NCBI GenBank assembly: GCA_046759445.1
Contig: JBHICG010000005.1
Span: 32,001 to 96,000, forward strand
DNA from: Candidatus Scalinduaceae bacterium
GTDB taxonomy: Bacteria; Planctomycetota; Brocadiia; Brocadiales; Scalinduaceae
Length of the DNA stretch: 64,000 nucleotides
Reading direction: 5' to 3'
Shown one piece after another: positions 21,001 to 27,000 of the stretch. The position numbers are program-made. Within the stretch, counting starts at the first letter, position 1. Each line of letters opens with the position of its first letter.

Positions 21001-24000
21001 AACTTAGCTATATTTCCAAAACGCATAAAAATATAAGCAATAATACAGCTTATGGAAGGTAATATAAAATAGAGAAGGGGAAGTAACCATACTATAAATG
21101 ACGGCTTTTTATTCACACTTTTTAATTCTTGTCGTATATTTTGAATATAATGTGACCAACCTATTTTGTTTTGAGAGGTTGTTATTTGATTGATTTGACT
21201 TTCAATATTTTCCCTTATATATGTACCTAATAGAAATATGTGATGAGAATGATCTGTCCATATGAATCCAAATATAGTCAAAATCCAGGGGATTATTATT
21301 AGTAACGGAGAATATATTGAAGGGTCTTTAGATATGAATGCTAATGTTGAACCTAAGGAAATTATTGAACCAGTTATGCATATAAACTGCTCTTTTGATC
21401 TTCTTTCTATCTCTTTTCTTATTTCTTGATATTCCGTTATTAACCATTGAATCATGTAATTTTTTTGGTTATCACTAATCATATTTCTATGCTCTACCTT
21501 TCAAAAATAGTAGATATTTTACAATGACTATTGGTAATTTACATACTCACCAATTTTGGTTTAAAAATCAATAATTCTATACCGTAAAAGTAGCTTATTT
21601 AATTTGCTTATTCAAATAAAAAAATAAAAGAAAACGCTTTGTATAATTTACACTATGTATATCATTTATAAACTGATTATTTCCTAGAACAACCTCTTCT
21701 ACTGGATCGTGAAAAGGTTTACTTCTGGTATTGCTGCGATTGAATATGTGATGTAAAGATGAGCGGGTGGATGTTGTGCCTTATCGAGATAAGGCATGCA
21801 ATATTTATAACATAATTTTTGAAGATGGTAATTATTTTTATTGATAGGGCTATCAAATAGTAATAAGATTATTTACATTATTATTTCACTACTTTTTATA
21901 TTGTAACTGTAAAATATCTTAAACAACGATAAATTTAAAAATAGTCAATGATATTATCAAGACCCGTGTAACCTATTAACAAACGCTTTATCTTAGAATT
22001 ACAATAATAAAGATGAAAAGAAGGAAAGTCATAATAATGGGTGCTGCTGGAAGGGATTTCCATAATTTCAATGTCTTCTTTAAGGATAATGAGGATTACG
22101 AAGTCGTGGCATTCACGGCAACCCAAATCCCAAACATCTCAGATAGGAAATATCCATCCGAACTCGCAGGAAAGTTATACCCCAACGGTATTTCTATTTA
22201 CAACGAAAATGAATTCACAGAATTTATCAAAGATCACAGTGTTGATGAAGTAGTTTTTTCCTACAGTGATGTTTCTCATGAATACGTAATGCATAAGGCA
22301 AGCGAGGTGCAGGCTGCGGGTGCTAGTTTTGTTATTATGGGCGCTAAGCAAACAATGTTGAAGAGTAAAGTACCCGTTATTGCAGTCTGTGCCGTGAGAA
22401 CTGGATGTGGGAAAAGTGCAACAACAAAGAAGATATGTCAGATATTAAAAGAAGCAAGGAAGAAGATTGTGGTAGTCCGTCATCCTATGCCTTATGGAGA
22501 TTTGATAAATCAAAGGGTTCAACGCTTCGAAACCTACGAAGACCTGGTCACGCACAACTGTACTATTGAAGAGATGGAGGAATATGAACCTCACATAGAA
22601 CAGGGTACAGTCGTATACGCAGGCGTTGATTATGAGGCTATACTAAGAAAGGCAGAAGGTGAGGCCGAAATAGTCATTTGGGATGGAGGGAACAATGATT
22701 TGCCCTTTTTTGAACCAGACGTTCACATAACCCTTGTAGATCCCCATAGACCGGGACATGAAGTAACGTTTTATCCCGGGGAATCCAACCTCATACTCGC
22801 TAACATCGTAATCATAAGCAAGGAAAAGACTGCTGACGTTGAAAACATCAATATAGTTAAAGACAACATAAAAAAGGCAAATCCAAAGGCAACCGTAATT
22901 GACGCATCATTGAATATTATGGTTGAAGGTTCCGAAATCATAAAAGACCGCAAGGTTCTTGCCGTAGAAGACGGGCCGACAGTAACTCATGGTGGAATGG
23001 CTTATGGCGCTGCCGTAATAGCAGCACAGAAACATGGTTCTTCTACCCTTGTTGATCCAAGACCGTTTGCAGTCGGAAGTATAAGAGAAACATTCAAAAA
23101 GTATCCTGACATTGGTAATCTTTTACCGGCTATGGGTTATGATCAAAAACAAATCCTTGAACTTGAAGAAACTATTAATCAAACAGATTGTGATACCGTT
23201 ATCATAGGTACCCCAATCGATTTAAGTAGAAGAATTAAGATAAACAAACCCGTTGTGAGGGCAAAATACGAACTTCAGGAGATAAGCAAACCAGGGTTGA
23301 AGGAAATAATAATAGAGCTTATTAAATAACATTTATGCATATTTAGTAAGTTATAGAGCCTCTGAGAAATTATGTCAAAGAACAGAAAAAAGATTATCGT
23401 AGTAGCCTTAGGGGGTAATGCTCTTATTCAGGAGGGCGAGAGGGGGACTATAAAAGAACAGTTTGCGAATACACAGAAAAGTATTGAGGGCATAATCCAC
23501 TGCATACAAAAAGGATTCGATGTCGTAATCACACACGGCAATGGCCCCCAAGTAGGTAATATGTTGTTGATGGTCGAATTAAGTCATGACAAGGTTCCAC
23601 AACTTCCATTAGGTGTATGTGTTGCAGATACTGAAGGTTCAATCGGTTATATGATCCAGCAAACATTAGTCAATCGTTTGCAGAAAGAGCGTATAAAAAA
23701 AAGTGTCGTTACTATCTTGACTCAGGTAATAGTGGATAAAGATGATCATGCATTTGAAAATCCAACCAAACCAATAGGCCCTTTCTTTTCTGAAGAAGAA
23801 GCAAACATGTTCAGCAGGGAAAGAGGTTGGAAGATGGTTGAAGATAGCCATAGGGGGTATCGAAGGGTTGTGGCCTCCCCTGCACCTATCAAGATTGTAG
23901 AAGACGAGTCAGTCAAAAGACTCCTGGAGTCTGGAGAGATTGTAATTGCTGCGGGTGGTGGCGGGATACCCGTGATCTTAAAAGATGACGGGTCTTTAGA

Positions 24001-27000
24001 GGGTGCAGATGTAGTTATAGACAAGGATCTTGCTTCGTATGTGTTAGCGCTGGACATAAAGGCCGATTACTTGATAATGCTCACGGGTGTTGAAAATGTC
24101 TACCTGAATTATGGTGAGCCAGATCAAAGACCCCTTGATACAATTACGATTGAAGAGGCAGAAAGATATATGGCTGAAGGGCACTTCCCTCCGGGCAGTA
24201 TGGGGCCAAAGATTCTGGCGGCAATCAATTTCTTAAAAGGTGGAGGAGAATCCTCCTTTATCACTGCTATAGATAAAGTTAAGGAAACTATTGCAGGCGA
24301 AGCAGGCACAAGGATAGTTCCATAAATTAGGACACAGGTTTGCACTGATACGTACAGATAACTACTCGTTCTTTATTTTGATATCCTGACAATCTGCGTT
24401 CATCTGCGTCTAAAGGAGAGATTATATATAGTTAAGATATGTAGCCGATTATATGACAGAGGAAGTATCCAAAAAATATAAGTCTGGATTTGTAACGATG
24501 TGGGGAAGGCCTAACGTAGGTAAGTCGACGTTGCTCAATACGCTTGTTGGTGAAAAGGTGGCAATCGTTACGCCAAGGCCTCAAACGACACGCAATAGAA
24601 TCACAGGTATATGTGAGGTAGAAAATGGGCAGATTGTATTTCTGGACACACCGGGAATCTTAAAGCCAAAACAAAAGCTTGATGAACATCTGGTAAGGTT
24701 AGCGCGTAATGGTCTCAGGGATGCTGACGTAGTTTTATTTGTTGTGGATAGTACTACACCTCCACATGGTGATGATAAACGTGCTGCAAAACTTATACGT
24801 TCCATCACAAAAGATATTTTACTTGTAGTTAATAAGATAGATATTGCTGACATCTCTCACCTTGAAGACCGTATCGATGAATATAAAAAGCTCGGAGACT
24901 TTAAAGGTGGCGTTGCTGTTTCAGCCATAACCCATATAAACCTTCATATGCTCGTCAATAAGATACTAGAATTATTGCCGGAAAGCCCTCCCTACTACCC
25001 TGAAGGTACTCTAACAGACCAGCAAGAAAAATTAACAATTGCAGAACTCATTCGAGAACAGGTGCTGCTCTTTGCAAGGCAGGAGGTCCCTCATGGAGTG
25101 GCTGTAGTGATAAATGAGTTTGCTCCAAGAAGTGATGAACTCGTTTATATTGCTGCGACAATATATGTGGAAAAGCCAACACATAAGTTGATTATTGTCG
25201 GCGAGCGAGGACAAATGTTAAAGGAGATAGGAAGGAAATCACGAGAAGGCATTCAAGAGCTATTAGAAAAGAAGGTTTACCTGGACCTCTGGGTCAAGGT
25301 AAGTAAAAACTGGCGAAAGGATGAGGCAACGTTAAGGCGTTTTGGGTATAAGTAAATTAATACTTTAATAATTATTAAGCTGCGAATTAATATTGATCCT
25401 ACTAGGTTGTAAATATCAAACAGGAGTTAAGGCTTTAGCCTTTTATGTGCATGTATAGGAATTTCAAAAGAGCCCACGAAACACACGAAAAGACACAAAA
25501 AAATACTTTCGTGATTTTCGTGGGGAATAGTAGTTGCCGAAGGCTTAATTTAATGCATAGGAATTTCAATGTTGTTTGTAACGTGTTAAAATAAAACCCT
25601 AAAGGGTAAAATCCGAAACGGAGTTAAGGCTTTAGCCTTTTATGTGCATTGGGGGTTTCTCCCAATGCCTTAAACCCTAAAGGGTGAAGTCCGATAAACC
25701 ACCTGAAAGCATAATTTCAAAAAAACAAAAATAATATTTTGACTTATGGCTAATACTCGAAAAGATGTACAAAAGAGACATCAGCCTTTTCATTTATATG
25801 TGGATAAACAAATATACTTTTTCTCTGTACATACCTATCAAAACGTTCCTATTTTAAAGAGTGTAAAACGTAAAAGTGCATTTGAGCAAAAGTTAAAAGA
25901 TAAAATGGTTGAAAAGCAGTGCAATATTATTGCCTGGGTGATTCTTGATAATCATTACCATTTCATGATGAAGACTGATAAAGGAAAAGACATCCGGGAT
26001 ATTTTCAAAGCTATTCATGGTACAACATCATTTCAATGGAATAAAGAGGATGGCAAGAAAGGCAGGAAGATATGGCAAAGTTATTGGGATTATTGTATCC
26101 GTAGTGAAAGCGATTATTGGACGCGTTTTAATTATATCCATCATAATCCTGTAAAGCATTGTTATGTTAAAAGGATGGAAGATTATGGATTTTCCAGCTT
26201 TAATTTCTATGTGAAGACAAAAGGATATGAATGGTTGATGTCTGTATTTGAAAAATATCCTGTTGTTGATTATATCATGGAAGGTGATGATAGATAGGAA
26301 TTAAGGCTTCAGCCTTTTATCTATTTTGTGGATGAAATAAAAGTCTAAAGACTAAATTCCATTTAAAGAGTTTTAAAAGTCTGAAGACTTAACTCCTTGA
26401 GAATAGAAAAATCTTACGTTTATAAAAACAGGAGTTAAGACTTTAGTCTTTTATCTTGTTTTAAACTGCTTTAAGAATTTAAGAGAGTAAATAATATAAA
26501 AAGCTATTTATAAAAGATAATTGAATGGAAGATAGCGTGAAAAGATTACGTCGTTTCCTTTTTCAGATATACTTTATAAAGCTGGCTATATAATCCTTGT
26601 TTTCTCATCAATGCTTCATGATTTCCTTCCTCGACCTTTTCCCCCTTGTTTAATACCAGGATATGGTCGCAATTATTAATGGTAGATAACCTGTGAGATA
26701 TTATAATAGAAGTCCTGTCTTCGGTTATCTTTTTAATGGCATCTTGAATTAAGACCTCAGAAACAGGGTCAATGTTAGACGTTGCTTCATCCAGGATTAG
26801 GATTTCAGGATTGTAGGCAAGAATCCGCGCGAATGATATAAATTGACGTTCACCTGCAGAGAGGTTTGAGCCTCTTTCGGCCACTTCAGTATCCAATCCC
26901 TGTGGCATTCTACCAATGAAATGAGCAAGACCAAGCTCATCTATGATTCCTAAAATCCTTTTATCTGAAATAGAATTAAAAAGTGATATATTGTCCCTGA

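What a model noticed while it worked through the whole genome (the two positions that open the first line are those of the whole stretch)
22037..24325. Arginine synthetase (ArcE)-carbamate kinase operon is a core, unrecognised trait of anammox bacteria
g00521 (430 aa, no Pfam/NCBIfam family) is a full-length orthologue of the recently discovered ATP-forming arginine synthetase ArcE of Thermococcus kodakarensis and is followed 42 bp downstream by an archaeal-type carbamate kinase (g00522). With the ornithine carbamoyltransferase g01199 this gives the complete 'arginine synthetase pathway' (arginine -> ornithine + CO2 + 2 NH3 with 2 ATP), a substrate-level ATP source that also releases the anammox substrate ammonium. 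The pair is conserved throughout Brocadiales, so it is a core anammox trait that has not been described.
Evidence so far: swissprot.tsv: g00521 62.1% identical to ArcE of T. kodakarensis over residues 1-430 of 430 (E 6e-200); g00522 50.8% to Pyrococcus carbamate kinase (E 5e-106), NCBIfam 'carbamate kinase'. search_genomes with g00521: 86 of 92 Brocadiales genomes, 58 of 59 high-quality ones, 26 of 27 genera, 54-92% identity, no internal stops in full-length hits. Gene order: carbamate kinase lies next to arcE in 19 of 22 loci taken from four of the five families (not within 5 kb in 3). Canonical argininosuccinate synthase/lyase (g03338, g03238) and CPS (g01512/g01513) are also present, which in the logic of the ArcE paper (PMC11032458, discussion passages read, call 32) points to the catabolic, ATP-yielding di [...]
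(Added by a program. Inside this text positions count along the whole contig: contig position 32,001 is position 1 of the stretch shown here. "Call 12" and the like, gene names such as g00115 and contig names such as C1 are that model's own, and its searches are not shown. The text may have been shortened before it was handed on; [...] marks where a part breaks off. The agent that wrote the report below was given it as the finding of a first reader that could run no searches.)

Follow-up and report, generated by a model that had tools for sequence, protein, structure and literature searches.

The report
ArcE–carbamate kinase operon in anammox bacteria
Two neighbouring genes in a marine anammox bacterium most likely encode the recently discovered ATP-linked arginine/citrulline enzyme ArcE and carbamate kinase; ArcE is kept by nearly all anammox bacteria but is mislabelled in public genomes, and what it does for them is still open.

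Summary
The genes are real. An ArcE-family ORF lies at 22013-23329 on the + strand. A bona fide carbamate kinase follows 42 bp downstream at 23372-24325.

Two further results sharpen them:
- None of 40 sister-order genomes of the same class has ArcE.
- 76 of 378 other Planctomycetota sampled have it.

The one high-quality genome without ArcE also lacks thymidylate kinase, the gene next to arcE in two genomes of its genus. That points to an assembly gap, not a loss.

"The pair is conserved throughout" is only partly right. A carbamate kinase above the family cut-off occurs in 63 of 92 genomes. It is missing from 18 of 20 genomes of the largest genus, which by inference is Ca. Scalindua.

ArcE-carbamate kinase operons are common in many phyla: 27 of 79 named loci here, and 26 earlier notes of this scan.

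The flux direction is unproven:
- The only ornithine carbamoyltransferase sits in an argB-argD-argF cluster.
- I found no dedicated arginine importer.
- In Kuenenia the pair is weakly expressed and is not induced by ammonium limitation.

Verdict: a new member of a known kind, moderately interesting. I could not check the reported 62% identity to T. kodakarensis ArcE.

The parts
21483..22012 (+). AT-rich intergenic region upstream of arcE (GC about 0.27-0.33); presumed promoter region of the operon
   Evidence: Composition profile. A promoter-like site lies at 21976-22005 (TTAACA-18-TACAAT, 10 of 12), but the number of such sites is no higher than in shuffles: 15 found against 13.8 expected. 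The promoter is therefore inferred, not shown.
   Evidence: ORF. No Pfam or NCBIfam family. 56-63% identical to homologues in about 20 phyla. All 75 invariant columns of a 53-sequence ArcE alignment are kept, including the P-loop G131-x-G133-K134-(S135) and W223-D-G-G-N-N-D229. The AF2 model has pLDDT 91.9, and its best PDB folds are cDPG synthetase and LpxK.
23330..23371 (+). 42-nt arcE-arcC spacer
   Evidence: Sequence. No terminator-like site lies here. Contigs from two DNase-treated metatranscriptome runs of one study bridge it: X1 record 5 covers 23168-23812 with 0 differences, and X2 record 10 covers 23278-23747 with 2 differences. This is compatible with co-transcription but does not prove it.
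23372..24325 (+). arcC: carbamate kinase, 317 aa
   Evidence: TIGR00746 404 bits against a cut-off of 358, and NF009007 399 bits. PF00696 AA_kinase. PDB 1E19 carbamate kinase, E 1.3e-96.
24453..25355 (+). era GTPase, same strand, 127 nt downstream of arcC. It is a conserved neighbour in Scalinduaceae genus g2 (3 of 3 loci annotated) and in this window, which lies in genus g1. It is probably not part of the pathway.
   Evidence: NF000908 GTPase Era, 357 bits against a cut-off of 237. The order arcE-arcC-era recurs in L037, L038 and L039.

Best explanation
The two genes encode a true orthologue of arginine synthetase ArcE and a carbamate kinase. [quoted passage not shown] Carbamate kinase catalyses carbamoyl phosphate + ADP <-> carbamate + ATP. 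The two are probably co-transcribed. Together with the genome's single ornithine carbamoyltransferase they make up the reversible 'arginine synthetase pathway'.

ArcE appears to have entered, or been retained by, the ancestor of the anammox order, and it has been kept almost everywhere since. Carbamate kinase is an optional partner that most genomes of one large marine genus lack.

The net flux in vivo is most likely arginine -> citrulline. I read this as a low-level salvage route that recovers ATP and ammonium from arginine freed by protein turnover or occasional uptake. I do not read it as a main energy source or as the route of arginine synthesis.

Shown: gene identity at family level, gene order, distribution, and presence in RNA libraries. 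Inferred: enzyme activity, co-transcription, direction of flux, and physiological role.
For: Family identity:
- The protein is 56-63% identical over its full length to homologues in about 20 bacterial and archaeal phyla.
- All invariant columns of a 53-sequence alignment are kept.
- The confident model (pLDDT 91.9) has cDPG synthetase (8ORU, E 9e-19, 18% identity) and LpxK 4EHX/4EHY (E about 1e-8) as its best folds. The ArcE paper names the same two relatives for TK2200p (PMC11032458, Results and Discussion read).
- Classical arginine deiminase (PF02274) is absent from 0 of 92 genomes, which fits the ArcE/ADI complementarity the paper describes.

Link to carbamate kinase:
- The two genes are adjacent on one strand in 51 of 92 genomes, in two different orders: arcE>arcC in families f1, f2, f4 and f5, and arcC>arcE in f3.
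- They are also adjacent in 27 of 79 named loci from other phyla.

Core status:
- ArcE is found in 86 of 92 genomes of the order.
- It is found in 0 of 40 sister-order genomes of the same class and in 76 of 378 other Planctomycetota sampled.
- Holding the order's ArcE as one clade is not rejected (p-AU 0.72).
- Of the 6 genomes without ArcE, G022 also lacks thymidylate kinase, which adjoins arcE in its congeners G023 and G025. The G062 contig ends 80 bp after tmk. Two others are 58% and 61% complete.

Direction:
- argG is present in 59 of 59 high-quality genomes. argH and CPS are present in the own genome. ArcE is therefore not needed to make arginine or carbamoyl phosphate.
- The T. kodakarensis enzyme has Ks about 110 mM for ammonium sulfate (PMC11032458).
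- Taking the published dG0' of -6.8 kJ/mol and assuming ATP/ADP = 5 and Pi = 5 mM, breakdown is favoured by 12-24 kJ/mol at 1-100 uM ammonium. It is near equilibrium only at about 10 mM.

Expression:
- Contigs from RNA libraries cover both genes and the junction with 0-2 differences.
- In K. stuttgartiensis the kinase (KSMBR1_1287) and its neighbour KSMBR1_1288 are transcribed at RPKM 32/42 and 17/24. I equate KSMBR1_1288 with ArcE by gene order only (PMC7438415 supplement).
Against: - No enzyme assay exists for any bacterial ArcE, and I could not compare the protein with TK2200 itself.
- The only OTC sits in an argB-argD-argF biosynthetic cluster, and no second, catabolic OTC exists: 90 of 92 genomes have an OTC above cut-off, with one full-length copy in all but 2-3.
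- No arginine-ornithine antiporter was found. The one APC permease scores far below every family cut-off.
- No PF00496 peptide-binding protein, no ornithine cyclodeaminase and no cyanophycin synthetase were found. A source of arginine and a sink for ornithine are therefore both missing in this autotroph.
- Arginine breakdown alongside argG/argH would be a futile cycle unless it is regulated.
- In Kuenenia the pair is not induced by ammonium limitation (log2FC 0.11 and 0.02, not significant).
- 18 of 20 genomes of genus g3 keep ArcE without carbamate kinase, so ArcE's selective value does not depend on the full pathway.
Confidence: 0.6

Rival explanations
1. An anabolic, energy-saving route. 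With ammonium abundant, carbamate kinase makes carbamoyl phosphate from spontaneously formed carbamate for 1 ATP instead of 2. ArcE then aminates citrulline with free ammonia for 1 ATP->ADP, replacing the ATP->AMP step of argininosuccinate synthetase. Slow-growing, energy-limited autotrophs would save roughly 2-4 ATP per arginine.
For: - ArcE is reversible and supports arginine synthesis in vivo in T. kodakarensis when citrulline and ammonium are supplied (PMC11032458).
- The only OTC is the biosynthetic one, inside argB-argD-argF.
- No arginine importer or ornithine sink was found.
- The organisms live on ammonium.
- The reaction is near equilibrium at about 10 mM ammonium.
- Carbamate kinase is kept in family f4, which includes the Kuenenia-like genome (inferred from gene order). 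It is lost in the genus I infer to be marine Scalindua.
- Expression in Kuenenia is constitutive alongside argG and argF.
Against: - The full canonical route is present: CPS, argG in 59 of 59 high-quality genomes, and argH.
- The only measured Ks for ammonium is about 110 mM as the sulfate.
- At 100 uM ammonium or less, Cit/Arg would have to exceed about 150.
- Kuenenia transcript levels are 4-8 times lower than those of argG and argF.
- The genus that keeps ArcE without the kinase is inferred to be marine and low-ammonium, which is where this direction is least feasible.
Confidence: 0.2
2. A reversible buffer. ArcE, OTC and carbamate kinase run near equilibrium as a store that takes up 2 NH3 + 2 ATP into arginine when both are plentiful and gives them back during starvation. 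Arginine would then act as a combined nitrogen and phosphoryl reserve for an organism whose fuel is ammonium.
For: - All three enzymes are reversible. Keq is about 10 for ArcE.
- The computed dG is within a few kJ/mol of zero at millimolar ammonium.
- ADP dependence is sigmoidal, so breakdown starts only when ADP rises (PMC11032458).
- Retention across the order is near-universal, and the gene is absent from the sister orders.
- Expression is low and constitutive.
Against: - No polymer store was found (no cyanophycin synthetase above cut-off), and free arginine pools are small.
- 18 of 20 g3 genomes lack the kinase half.
- There are no data on arginine pools in anammox cells.
- No transcriptional response to ammonium versus nitrite limitation was seen.
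Confidence: 0.12
3. Carbamoyl phosphate supply for pyrimidines from arginine, as shown for T. kodakarensis.
For: - The abstract of PMC13260591 shows this role where CPS is missing.
- In family f4 arcE lies directly downstream of thymidylate kinase on the same strand in 7 of 8 loci examined.
- Genus g3 keeps ArcE and OTC without the kinase, which leaves carbamoyl phosphate as an end product.
Against: - The CPS large subunit is present at 1562 bits against a cut-off of 1027, so no such bypass is needed.
- Thymidylate kinase acts far downstream of carbamoyl phosphate.
- The tmk neighbourhood is confined to one family.
Confidence: 0.05
4. The protein is what public databases call it, a cyclic 2,3-diphosphoglycerate synthetase or a GTPase, or it acts on another substrate.
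For: - Public names are 'cyclic 2,3-diphosphoglycerate synthase' and 'predicted GTPase'.
- The best solved fold is cDPG synthetase.
Against: - Identity to cDPG synthetase is only 17-18%, and the sequence E-value is 2e-4. Identity within the ArcE family is about 60%.
- The gene is tightly linked to carbamate kinase.
- The ArcE paper states that homologues had been annotated as putative GTPases and that the family is only distantly similar to cDPG synthase.
Confidence: 0.03

Closest known systems
Arginine synthetase ArcE (TK2200) and the arginine synthetase pathway ArcE-ArcB-ArcC of Thermococcus kodakarensis (Michimori, Yokooji, Atomi 2024, PMC11032458; Results and Discussion read)
   Same: - It is a family of about 440-aa P-loop proteins with no Pfam model.
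- It has the same structural relatives, cDPG synthetase and LpxK.
- It has the same partner gene, arcC.
- The host genomes have no classical arginine deiminase.
- OTC is present.
   Different: - The host is a mesophilic chemolithoautotrophic bacterium with complete canonical arginine and carbamoyl phosphate synthesis. T. kodakarensis is an arginine-auxotrophic peptide fermenter.
- No arginine import or ornithine use was found.
- The kinase is missing in a large part of the order.
- The activity has not been assayed, and I did not compare the sequence with TK2200 directly.
Bacterial arcE-arcC(-arcB) operons of anaerobic heterotrophs
   Same: The arcE>arcC order and short spacer are the same, and sequence identity is about 60%.
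   Different: According to the earlier notes, which I did not check, those operons often carry OTC, ornithine aminotransferase or ornithine fermentation genes that mark them as catabolic. The anammox loci carry none. Their neighbours are thymidylate kinase, era or M16 peptidases.
Arginine deiminase (ADI) pathway ArcA-ArcB-ArcC
   Same: It gives the same overall conversion of arginine to ornithine, CO2 and 2 NH3, and it uses the same two downstream enzymes.
   Different: The first step is hydrolytic and irreversible, and it yields 1 ATP per arginine instead of 2. ArcA is absent here: 0 of 92 genomes.
Cyclic 2,3-diphosphoglycerate synthetase (PDB 8ORU, 8ORK, 9SXB)
   Same: It is the best solved fold and has a similar length. 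Public annotation pipelines give this name to the anammox genes.
   Different: Identity is 17-18% and the sequence E-value is only 2e-4. The chemistry is different. This is a mis-annotation.

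Membership tests
ArcE (arginine synthetase / ATP-forming arginine deiminase) | Full-length sequence similarity to the characterised enzyme TK2200 | not testable with these tools
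Indirect evidence: the protein is 56-63% identical over residues 1-433/438 to homologues in about 20 phyla, including Thermoplasmatota archaea. 598 cluster representatives match at E<=1e-30.
ArcE (arginine synthetase / ATP-forming arginine deiminase) | P-loop NTPase fold whose nearest solved relatives are cDPG synthetase and LpxK (4EHY), as reported for TK2200p | tested here: met
   The model has pLDDT 91.9 and pTM 0.90. Foldseek ranks 8ORU/8ORK at 1-2 and LpxK 4EHX/4LKV/4EHY at 3-5.
ArcE (arginine synthetase / ATP-forming arginine deiminase) | Conserved nucleotide-binding and family-invariant residues intact | tested here: met
   75 invariant columns in 53 sequences are all present in the window protein. 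They include T130-G131-x-G133-K134, W223-D-G-G-N-N-D229 and E319-D-G-P322. Which of these are catalytic is not known from any call.
ArcE (arginine synthetase / ATP-forming arginine deiminase) | Genomic association with arcC and/or arcB | tested here: met
   arcC lies 42 nt downstream, and the two genes are adjacent in 51 of 92 genomes of the order. arcB is not adjacent; it lies in an argB-argD-argF cluster on another contig.
ArcE (arginine synthetase / ATP-forming arginine deiminase) | Complementary distribution with classical arginine deiminase ArcA | tested here: met
   PF02274 was found in 0 of 92 genomes. The control search matched in 3 of 14 reference genomes.
ArcE (arginine synthetase / ATP-forming arginine deiminase) | [quoted passage not shown] | not testable with these tools
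   This needs an enzyme assay of the recombinant protein.
Carbamate kinase (ArcC) | Scores above the curated cut-off of the equivalog model over its full length | tested here: met
   TIGR00746 scores 404.1 bits against a cut-off of 358.25, covering residues 8-316 of 317. PDB 1E19 matches at E 1.3e-96 over residues 7-317.
Arginine synthetase pathway as a catabolic, ATP-yielding system | All three enzymes present in one genome | tested here: met
   Own genome: ArcE, carbamate kinase and OTC. Across the order, both ArcE and a kinase above cut-off occur in 62 of 92 genomes.
Arginine synthetase pathway as a catabolic, ATP-yielding system | A supply of arginine (importer or store) and a fate for ornithine | tested here: not met
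   - No arginine-ornithine antiporter: the best hit is a generic APC permease at 98 bits against TIGR03810's cut-off of 591.
- No PF00496 binding protein.
- No cyanophycin synthetase above cut-off.
- No ornithine cyclodeaminase.
- The genome is 97% complete, and other transporter families were not searched.
Arginine synthetase pathway as a catabolic, ATP-yielding system | Induction by arginine or by energy or ammonium shortage | tested here: inconclusive
   In Kuenenia under NH4+-limited versus NO2--limited growth, log2FC is 0.02 for the kinase and 0.11 for its neighbour, neither significant. No data set with arginine or starvation was seen. KSMBR1_1288 is equated with ArcE by gene order only.

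The most novel reading that the evidence does not exclude
ArcE was acquired at the origin of the anammox order: it is absent from all 40 sister-order genomes and present in 86 of 92 anammox genomes. It has been retained because ArcE-OTC-carbamate kinase works as a reversible ammonium-and-ATP buffer. The system would load 2 NH3 + 2 ATP onto ornithine when the cell's fuel, ammonium, is plentiful, and release both under starvation. That would be a physiological role not described for this pathway, and it would link amino-acid metabolism to anammox energy conservation.
Probability: 0.12. Interest if true: 0.75.

Novelty: new member of a known kind. Interest (0 to 1): 0.42.

Why it matters
Anammox bacteria remove a large share of fixed nitrogen from oceans and wastewater, and they are treated as strict ammonium/nitrite lithoautotrophs.

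A conserved enzyme that interconverts arginine and citrulline with ATP and free ammonia touches both their fuel and their energy budget. It could explain use of organic nitrogen, survival of starvation, or cheaper arginine synthesis.

There is also a practical point. The gene is mislabelled in public anammox genomes as cyclic 2,3-diphosphoglycerate synthase, GTPase or hypothetical protein, so metabolic reconstructions miss it.

The claim stays modest. The enzyme family and its operon with carbamate kinase are already described and are widespread. Only the lineage-wide retention, and the open question of its role in an autotroph, are new.

Tried and rejected
(1) Obtaining the TK2200 sequence.
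- The search for homologous proteins lists only the best 120 hits, all Scalinduaceae-like.
- The 50%-cluster representatives carry no names.
- The one genome-contig scan returned 80 named loci but no Thermococcus.
- The direct identity check was therefore abandoned.

(2) The ArcE paper's supplement.
- Its text holds no Brocadia, Kuenenia, Scalindua, Jettenia, Planctomyc* or anammox.
- The trees in Figs S10 and S11 use KEGG codes and are pictures, so anammox sequences may be in them unseen.

(3) Hydrazine synthase alpha (PF18582) as a marker for 'anammox genome' across the class.
- The domain occurs in 11-20 copies in several sister-order genomes.
- The search misses 32 of 92 genomes of the order.
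- I used it only to show that the own genome has an 819-aa HzsA-type ORF.

(4) The careful and PMSF tree searches and the AU test under the mixture model did not finish. The AU result comes from LG+G4.

(5) The S. profunda transcriptome and proteome tables.
- The ArcE orthologue could not be identified, because the FASTA supplements are unreadable.
- 'carbamate kinase' and 'diphosphoglycerate' do not occur in the 12 of 13 files searched.

(6) RNA-library contigs.
- The parts of the window without cover, for example 20838-22173 in run X2, prove nothing.
- Depth cannot rank genes.
- Run X3 is probably DNA.

(7) Recent transfer from archaea, suggested by the 62% identity to Thermococcus, is rejected. 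The same identity level holds across many bacterial phyla, and the order's sequences can form one clade.

(8) Promoter and terminator scans were not above the shuffled expectation.

Full report
WHAT IS THERE

The window holds an ORF at 22013-23329 (+) and a second at 23372-24325 (+). A 42-nt spacer separates them: TAA at 23327-23329 and ATG at 23372. An era GTPase gene follows 127 nt further on.

The first protein matches no Pfam or NCBIfam model. Its best hits have E 0.0065-0.09 and all lie far below the cut-offs. Its only sequence matches in the PDB are three cyclic 2,3-diphosphoglycerate synthetases at E 2e-4 to 3e-3.

The second protein is an unambiguous carbamate kinase. It scores 404 bits against TIGR00746 (cut-off 358), and PDB 1E19 matches at E 1.3e-96.

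I think the start is ATG 22013, for three reasons:
- Homologues across the order align from residue 1 of the longer form.
- In a 53-sequence alignment spanning many phyla the consensus begins MxxxKVIIMGAAGRDFH, with I8 invariant.
- In the structure model residues 4-10 are the first beta strand.

WHOSE GENOME

The assembly is 3.62 Mb, 97% complete and 2.3% contaminated. It encodes an 819-aa ORF with the hydrazine synthase alpha domain. The nearest public proteins are labelled Candidatus Scalinduaceae and Candidatus Scalindua. This is an anammox bacterium of the Scalindua family but not of the main Scalindua genus.

IS IT ArcE?

The indirect evidence is strong.

The 80 best include proteins 56-63% identical over essentially the full length. 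They come from KSB1, Ignavibacteriota, Bacteroidota, Cloacimonadota, Fidelibacterota, Caldisericota, Acidobacteriota, Nitrospinota, Chloroflexota, Bacillota, Gemmatimonadota, Myxococcota and others. They also come from Thermoplasmata, Methanomassiliicoccales and Aciduliprofundum archaea.
- This is a slowly evolving, single-copy enzyme family, and all 75 invariant alignment columns are intact in the window protein.
- An AlphaFold model built on that alignment is confident, with pLDDT 91.9.
- Its best solved relatives are cDPG synthetase (8ORU, E 9e-19, 18% identity) and then LpxK of Aquifex, including the ADP/Mg complex 4EHY.
- The ArcE paper describes exactly this for TK2200p: low similarity to cDPG synthase, superposition on 4EHY, homologues annotated as putative GTPases, and some homologues beside arcB or arcC (PMC11032458, Results and Discussion read).
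- Classical arginine deiminase is absent from all 92 genomes of the order. This fits the complementary distribution the paper reports.

DISTRIBUTION

Two new results sharpen them.

First, ArcE marks the anammox order within its class and is only patchy in the phylum:
- None of the 40 genomes of the sister orders in the same class has a match at E<=1e-30, against 84 of 92 in the order at that threshold.
- In an even sample of the phylum, 76 of 378 genomes outside the order have one (98 of 401, less 22 from the order including the own genome).

Second, most of the six 'missing' cases are not losses:
- G022 is the one high-quality genome without ArcE. It also has no thymidylate kinase at all. Its congeners G023 and G025 each have a single tmk directly next to arcE. 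The locus is probably unassembled.
- In G062 the contig ends 80 bp after tmk.
- G056 and G007 are 58% and 61% complete.
- G010 looks like a real deletion. It has arcC-DUF167-tRNA synthetase where its congener G008 has arcC-arcE-yggS-DUF167-tRNA synthetase.
- G003 (89% complete) is unresolved.

A FastTree of 141 sequences puts all 42 sequences of the order on one side, together with 4 other Planctomycetota. In a 53-row IQ-TREE analysis, families f1, f2, f4 and f5 form a supported clade and f3 a second one. The AU test does not reject a single clade (p 0.72), and the constrained tree actually scored 18.6 log-likelihood units better than the quick free search. Single ancestry with vertical descent is therefore compatible with the data but is not proven.

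THE KINASE IS NOT CORE

A carbamate kinase above the family cut-off occurs in 63 of 92 genomes. Combining (script) gives:
- 51 genomes with the two genes adjacent on one strand. 42 have arcE then arcC with gaps of 20-525 nt. 9, all in family f3, have arcC then arcE.
- 11 with both genes but on different contigs or far apart.
- 24 with ArcE only.
- 1 with the kinase only.
- 5 with neither.

Eighteen of the 24 ArcE-only genomes belong to genus g3, which has 20 genomes. I take g3 to be Candidatus Scalindua, because a record with that title carries an ArcE identical to that of a g3 genome. Seven of those 18 are at least 90% complete and at most 5% contaminated.

Their loci show arcE followed by a UbiA-type prenyltransferase where relatives have arcC-era. 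The published S. profunda transcriptome and proteome tables do not contain the words 'carbamate kinase' (12 of 13 supplementary files searched).

The two gene orders, and the recurrence of arcE>arcC in 27 of 79 named loci from other phyla, show a real functional link between the two genes. They also show that the operon is a common module and not an anammox speciality. This scan had already noted it in at least 26 other genomes, none of them anammox.

CONTEXT AND THE QUESTION OF DIRECTION

Nothing near the pair in 20 loci from all five families concerns arginine. The neighbours are as follows:
- In family f4 a thymidylate kinase lies immediately upstream on the same strand in 7 of 8 loci.
- In Scalinduaceae a divergent pair of M16 peptidases lies upstream in 6 of 7 loci. 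It is not present in this window.
- era lies downstream in genera g1 and g2.

The own genome's only OTC sits in an argB-argD-argF cluster. Nearly every genome of the order has exactly one OTC. The canonical route is complete: argG (59 of 59 high-quality genomes), argH and CPS.

I found no arginine-ornithine antiporter. There is a single APC permease far below every cut-off. I also found no PF00496 peptide-binding protein, no cyanophycin synthetase and no ornithine cyclodeaminase. So the catabolic reading lacks both a source of arginine and a sink for ornithine, while the anabolic reading is redundant with the canonical route.

Two arguments from the ArcE paper tilt towards breakdown:
- The Ks for ammonium sulfate is about 110 mM.
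- The reaction has dG0' of -6.8 kJ/mol. Assuming ATP/ADP = 5 and Pi = 5 mM, breakdown is favoured by 12-24 kJ/mol at 1-100 uM ammonium. It approaches equilibrium only near 10 mM (the concentrations are my assumptions).

EXPRESSION

Contigs from two DNase-treated metatranscriptome runs of one study match the window with 0-2 differences. They cover the arcE 5' end, and two of them bridge the arcE-arcC junction. This shows presence in RNA libraries. It does not show a single transcript or a level.

In K. stuttgartiensis MBR1 the kinase is KSMBR1_1287. The gene next to it, KSMBR1_1288, is annotated 'hypothetical protein'. The published gene order is accA, hypothetical, cbk, hypothetical, then a COG-L gene. 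This matches my locus L034: accA, TPR protein, arcC, arcE, GIY-YIG. I therefore equate KSMBR1_1288 with ArcE, by synteny only.

RPKM values (ammonium-limited / nitrite-limited growth) are:

| Gene | NH4+-limited | NO2--limited |
|---|---|---|
| KSMBR1_1288 (ArcE by synteny) | 17 | 24 |
| KSMBR1_1287 (carbamate kinase) | 32 | 42 |
| argG | 142 | 188 |
| argF | 110 | 139 |

Neither KSMBR1_1288 nor KSMBR1_1287 changes significantly between the two conditions (PMC7438415 supplementary files; the main text does not mention arginine or carbamate). Low, constitutive expression fits a housekeeping or salvage role better than a regulated energy source.

IS IT IN PRINT?

Full-text searches gave:
- 'arginine synthetase' + anammox: 0 papers.
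- 'diphosphoglycerate synthetase' + anammox: 0 papers.
- 'carbamate kinase' + anammox: 8 papers, none about anammox bacteria's own enzyme judging by title and abstract. I looked at passages of one of them.
- anammox + arginine + ornithine + citrulline: 9 unrelated papers.
- The Kuenenia locus tags: 0 papers.

The ArcE paper lists Planctomycetota (Gimesia) and Ca. Uabimicrobium but no anammox genus in its text or its supplement text. Its tree figures are pictures that I could not read.

VERDICT

The protein is very probably an ArcE orthologue, and its near-universal retention in the anammox order, against its absence from the sister orders, is a real and apparently unreported pattern. The physiological claim of substrate-level ATP and ammonium from arginine is one of several readings, and it has evidence against it as a major role. 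This is a new member of a known kind, of moderate interest.

Noticed in passing
L031, L032, L033, L035, L036, L049, L050 (family f4 loci); e.g. L032:7302-8000 (-): In 7 of 8 family-f4 loci examined, a thymidylate kinase gene lies immediately upstream of arcE on the same strand, in some cases overlapping it. The exception is the Kuenenia-like locus L034. In G023 and G025 it is the genome's only PF02223 hit. No explanation is known; a link to pyrimidine or carbamoyl phosphate metabolism is only a guess.
   Followed up: partly
L037-L039, L041-L043 (Scalinduaceae genera g2 and g3): A pair of M16 (insulinase-type) peptidase genes lies divergently upstream of arcE in 6 of 7 Scalinduaceae loci examined. 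It is not in this window, where a NUDIX gene and an unknown 193-aa ORF take that place.
   Followed up: no
window 25746-26297 (+) and 25446-25650: An IS200-like transposase ORF (PF01797, E 5e-7) lies downstream of era. Contigs from the sequencing runs show many joints and loose ends around 25446-25650 and 26320-26454, as expected at the edge of a repeated or mobile element.
   Followed up: no
G010:C157 (L154) against G008:C11 (L045): One family-f3 genome has lost arcE together with the neighbouring YggS-like gene while keeping carbamate kinase. It has arcC-DUF167-tRNA synthetase where its congener has arcC-arcE-yggS-DUF167-tRNA synthetase.
   Followed up: yes
G475, G476, G477, G478, G483, G484 (sister orders of the same class): The Pfam domain named after hydrazine synthase alpha (PF18582) occurs in 11-20 copies per genome in proteins of 800-1700 aa in non-anammox relatives. 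It is therefore not a specific marker of anammox.
   Followed up: no
G099:C1:4752234-4753031, G186:C118:31279-32142, G260:C1:5495744-5496634, G276:C272:5798-6700: Some other Planctomycetota carry a second, distant relative of ArcE. It is 27-33% identical and covers only the first ~300 residues, which suggests a different member of the ArcE/cDPG-synthetase superfamily.
   Followed up: no
G074:C22:73193-73441 and G073:C31:6639-6767: Short extra fragments of arcE lie elsewhere in two genus-g3 genomes. One covers residues 1-83 at 82% identity. The other covers residues 212-254 and contains a TGA. They are probably decayed duplicates.
   Followed up: no
window 18685-19758 (+): A di-haem cytochrome c peroxidase (MauG/CCP family, PF03150, E 8e-56) lies 2.2 kb upstream. 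It had the highest summed contig depth of the laid stretch in all three runs, though such depth cannot rank genes.
   Followed up: no
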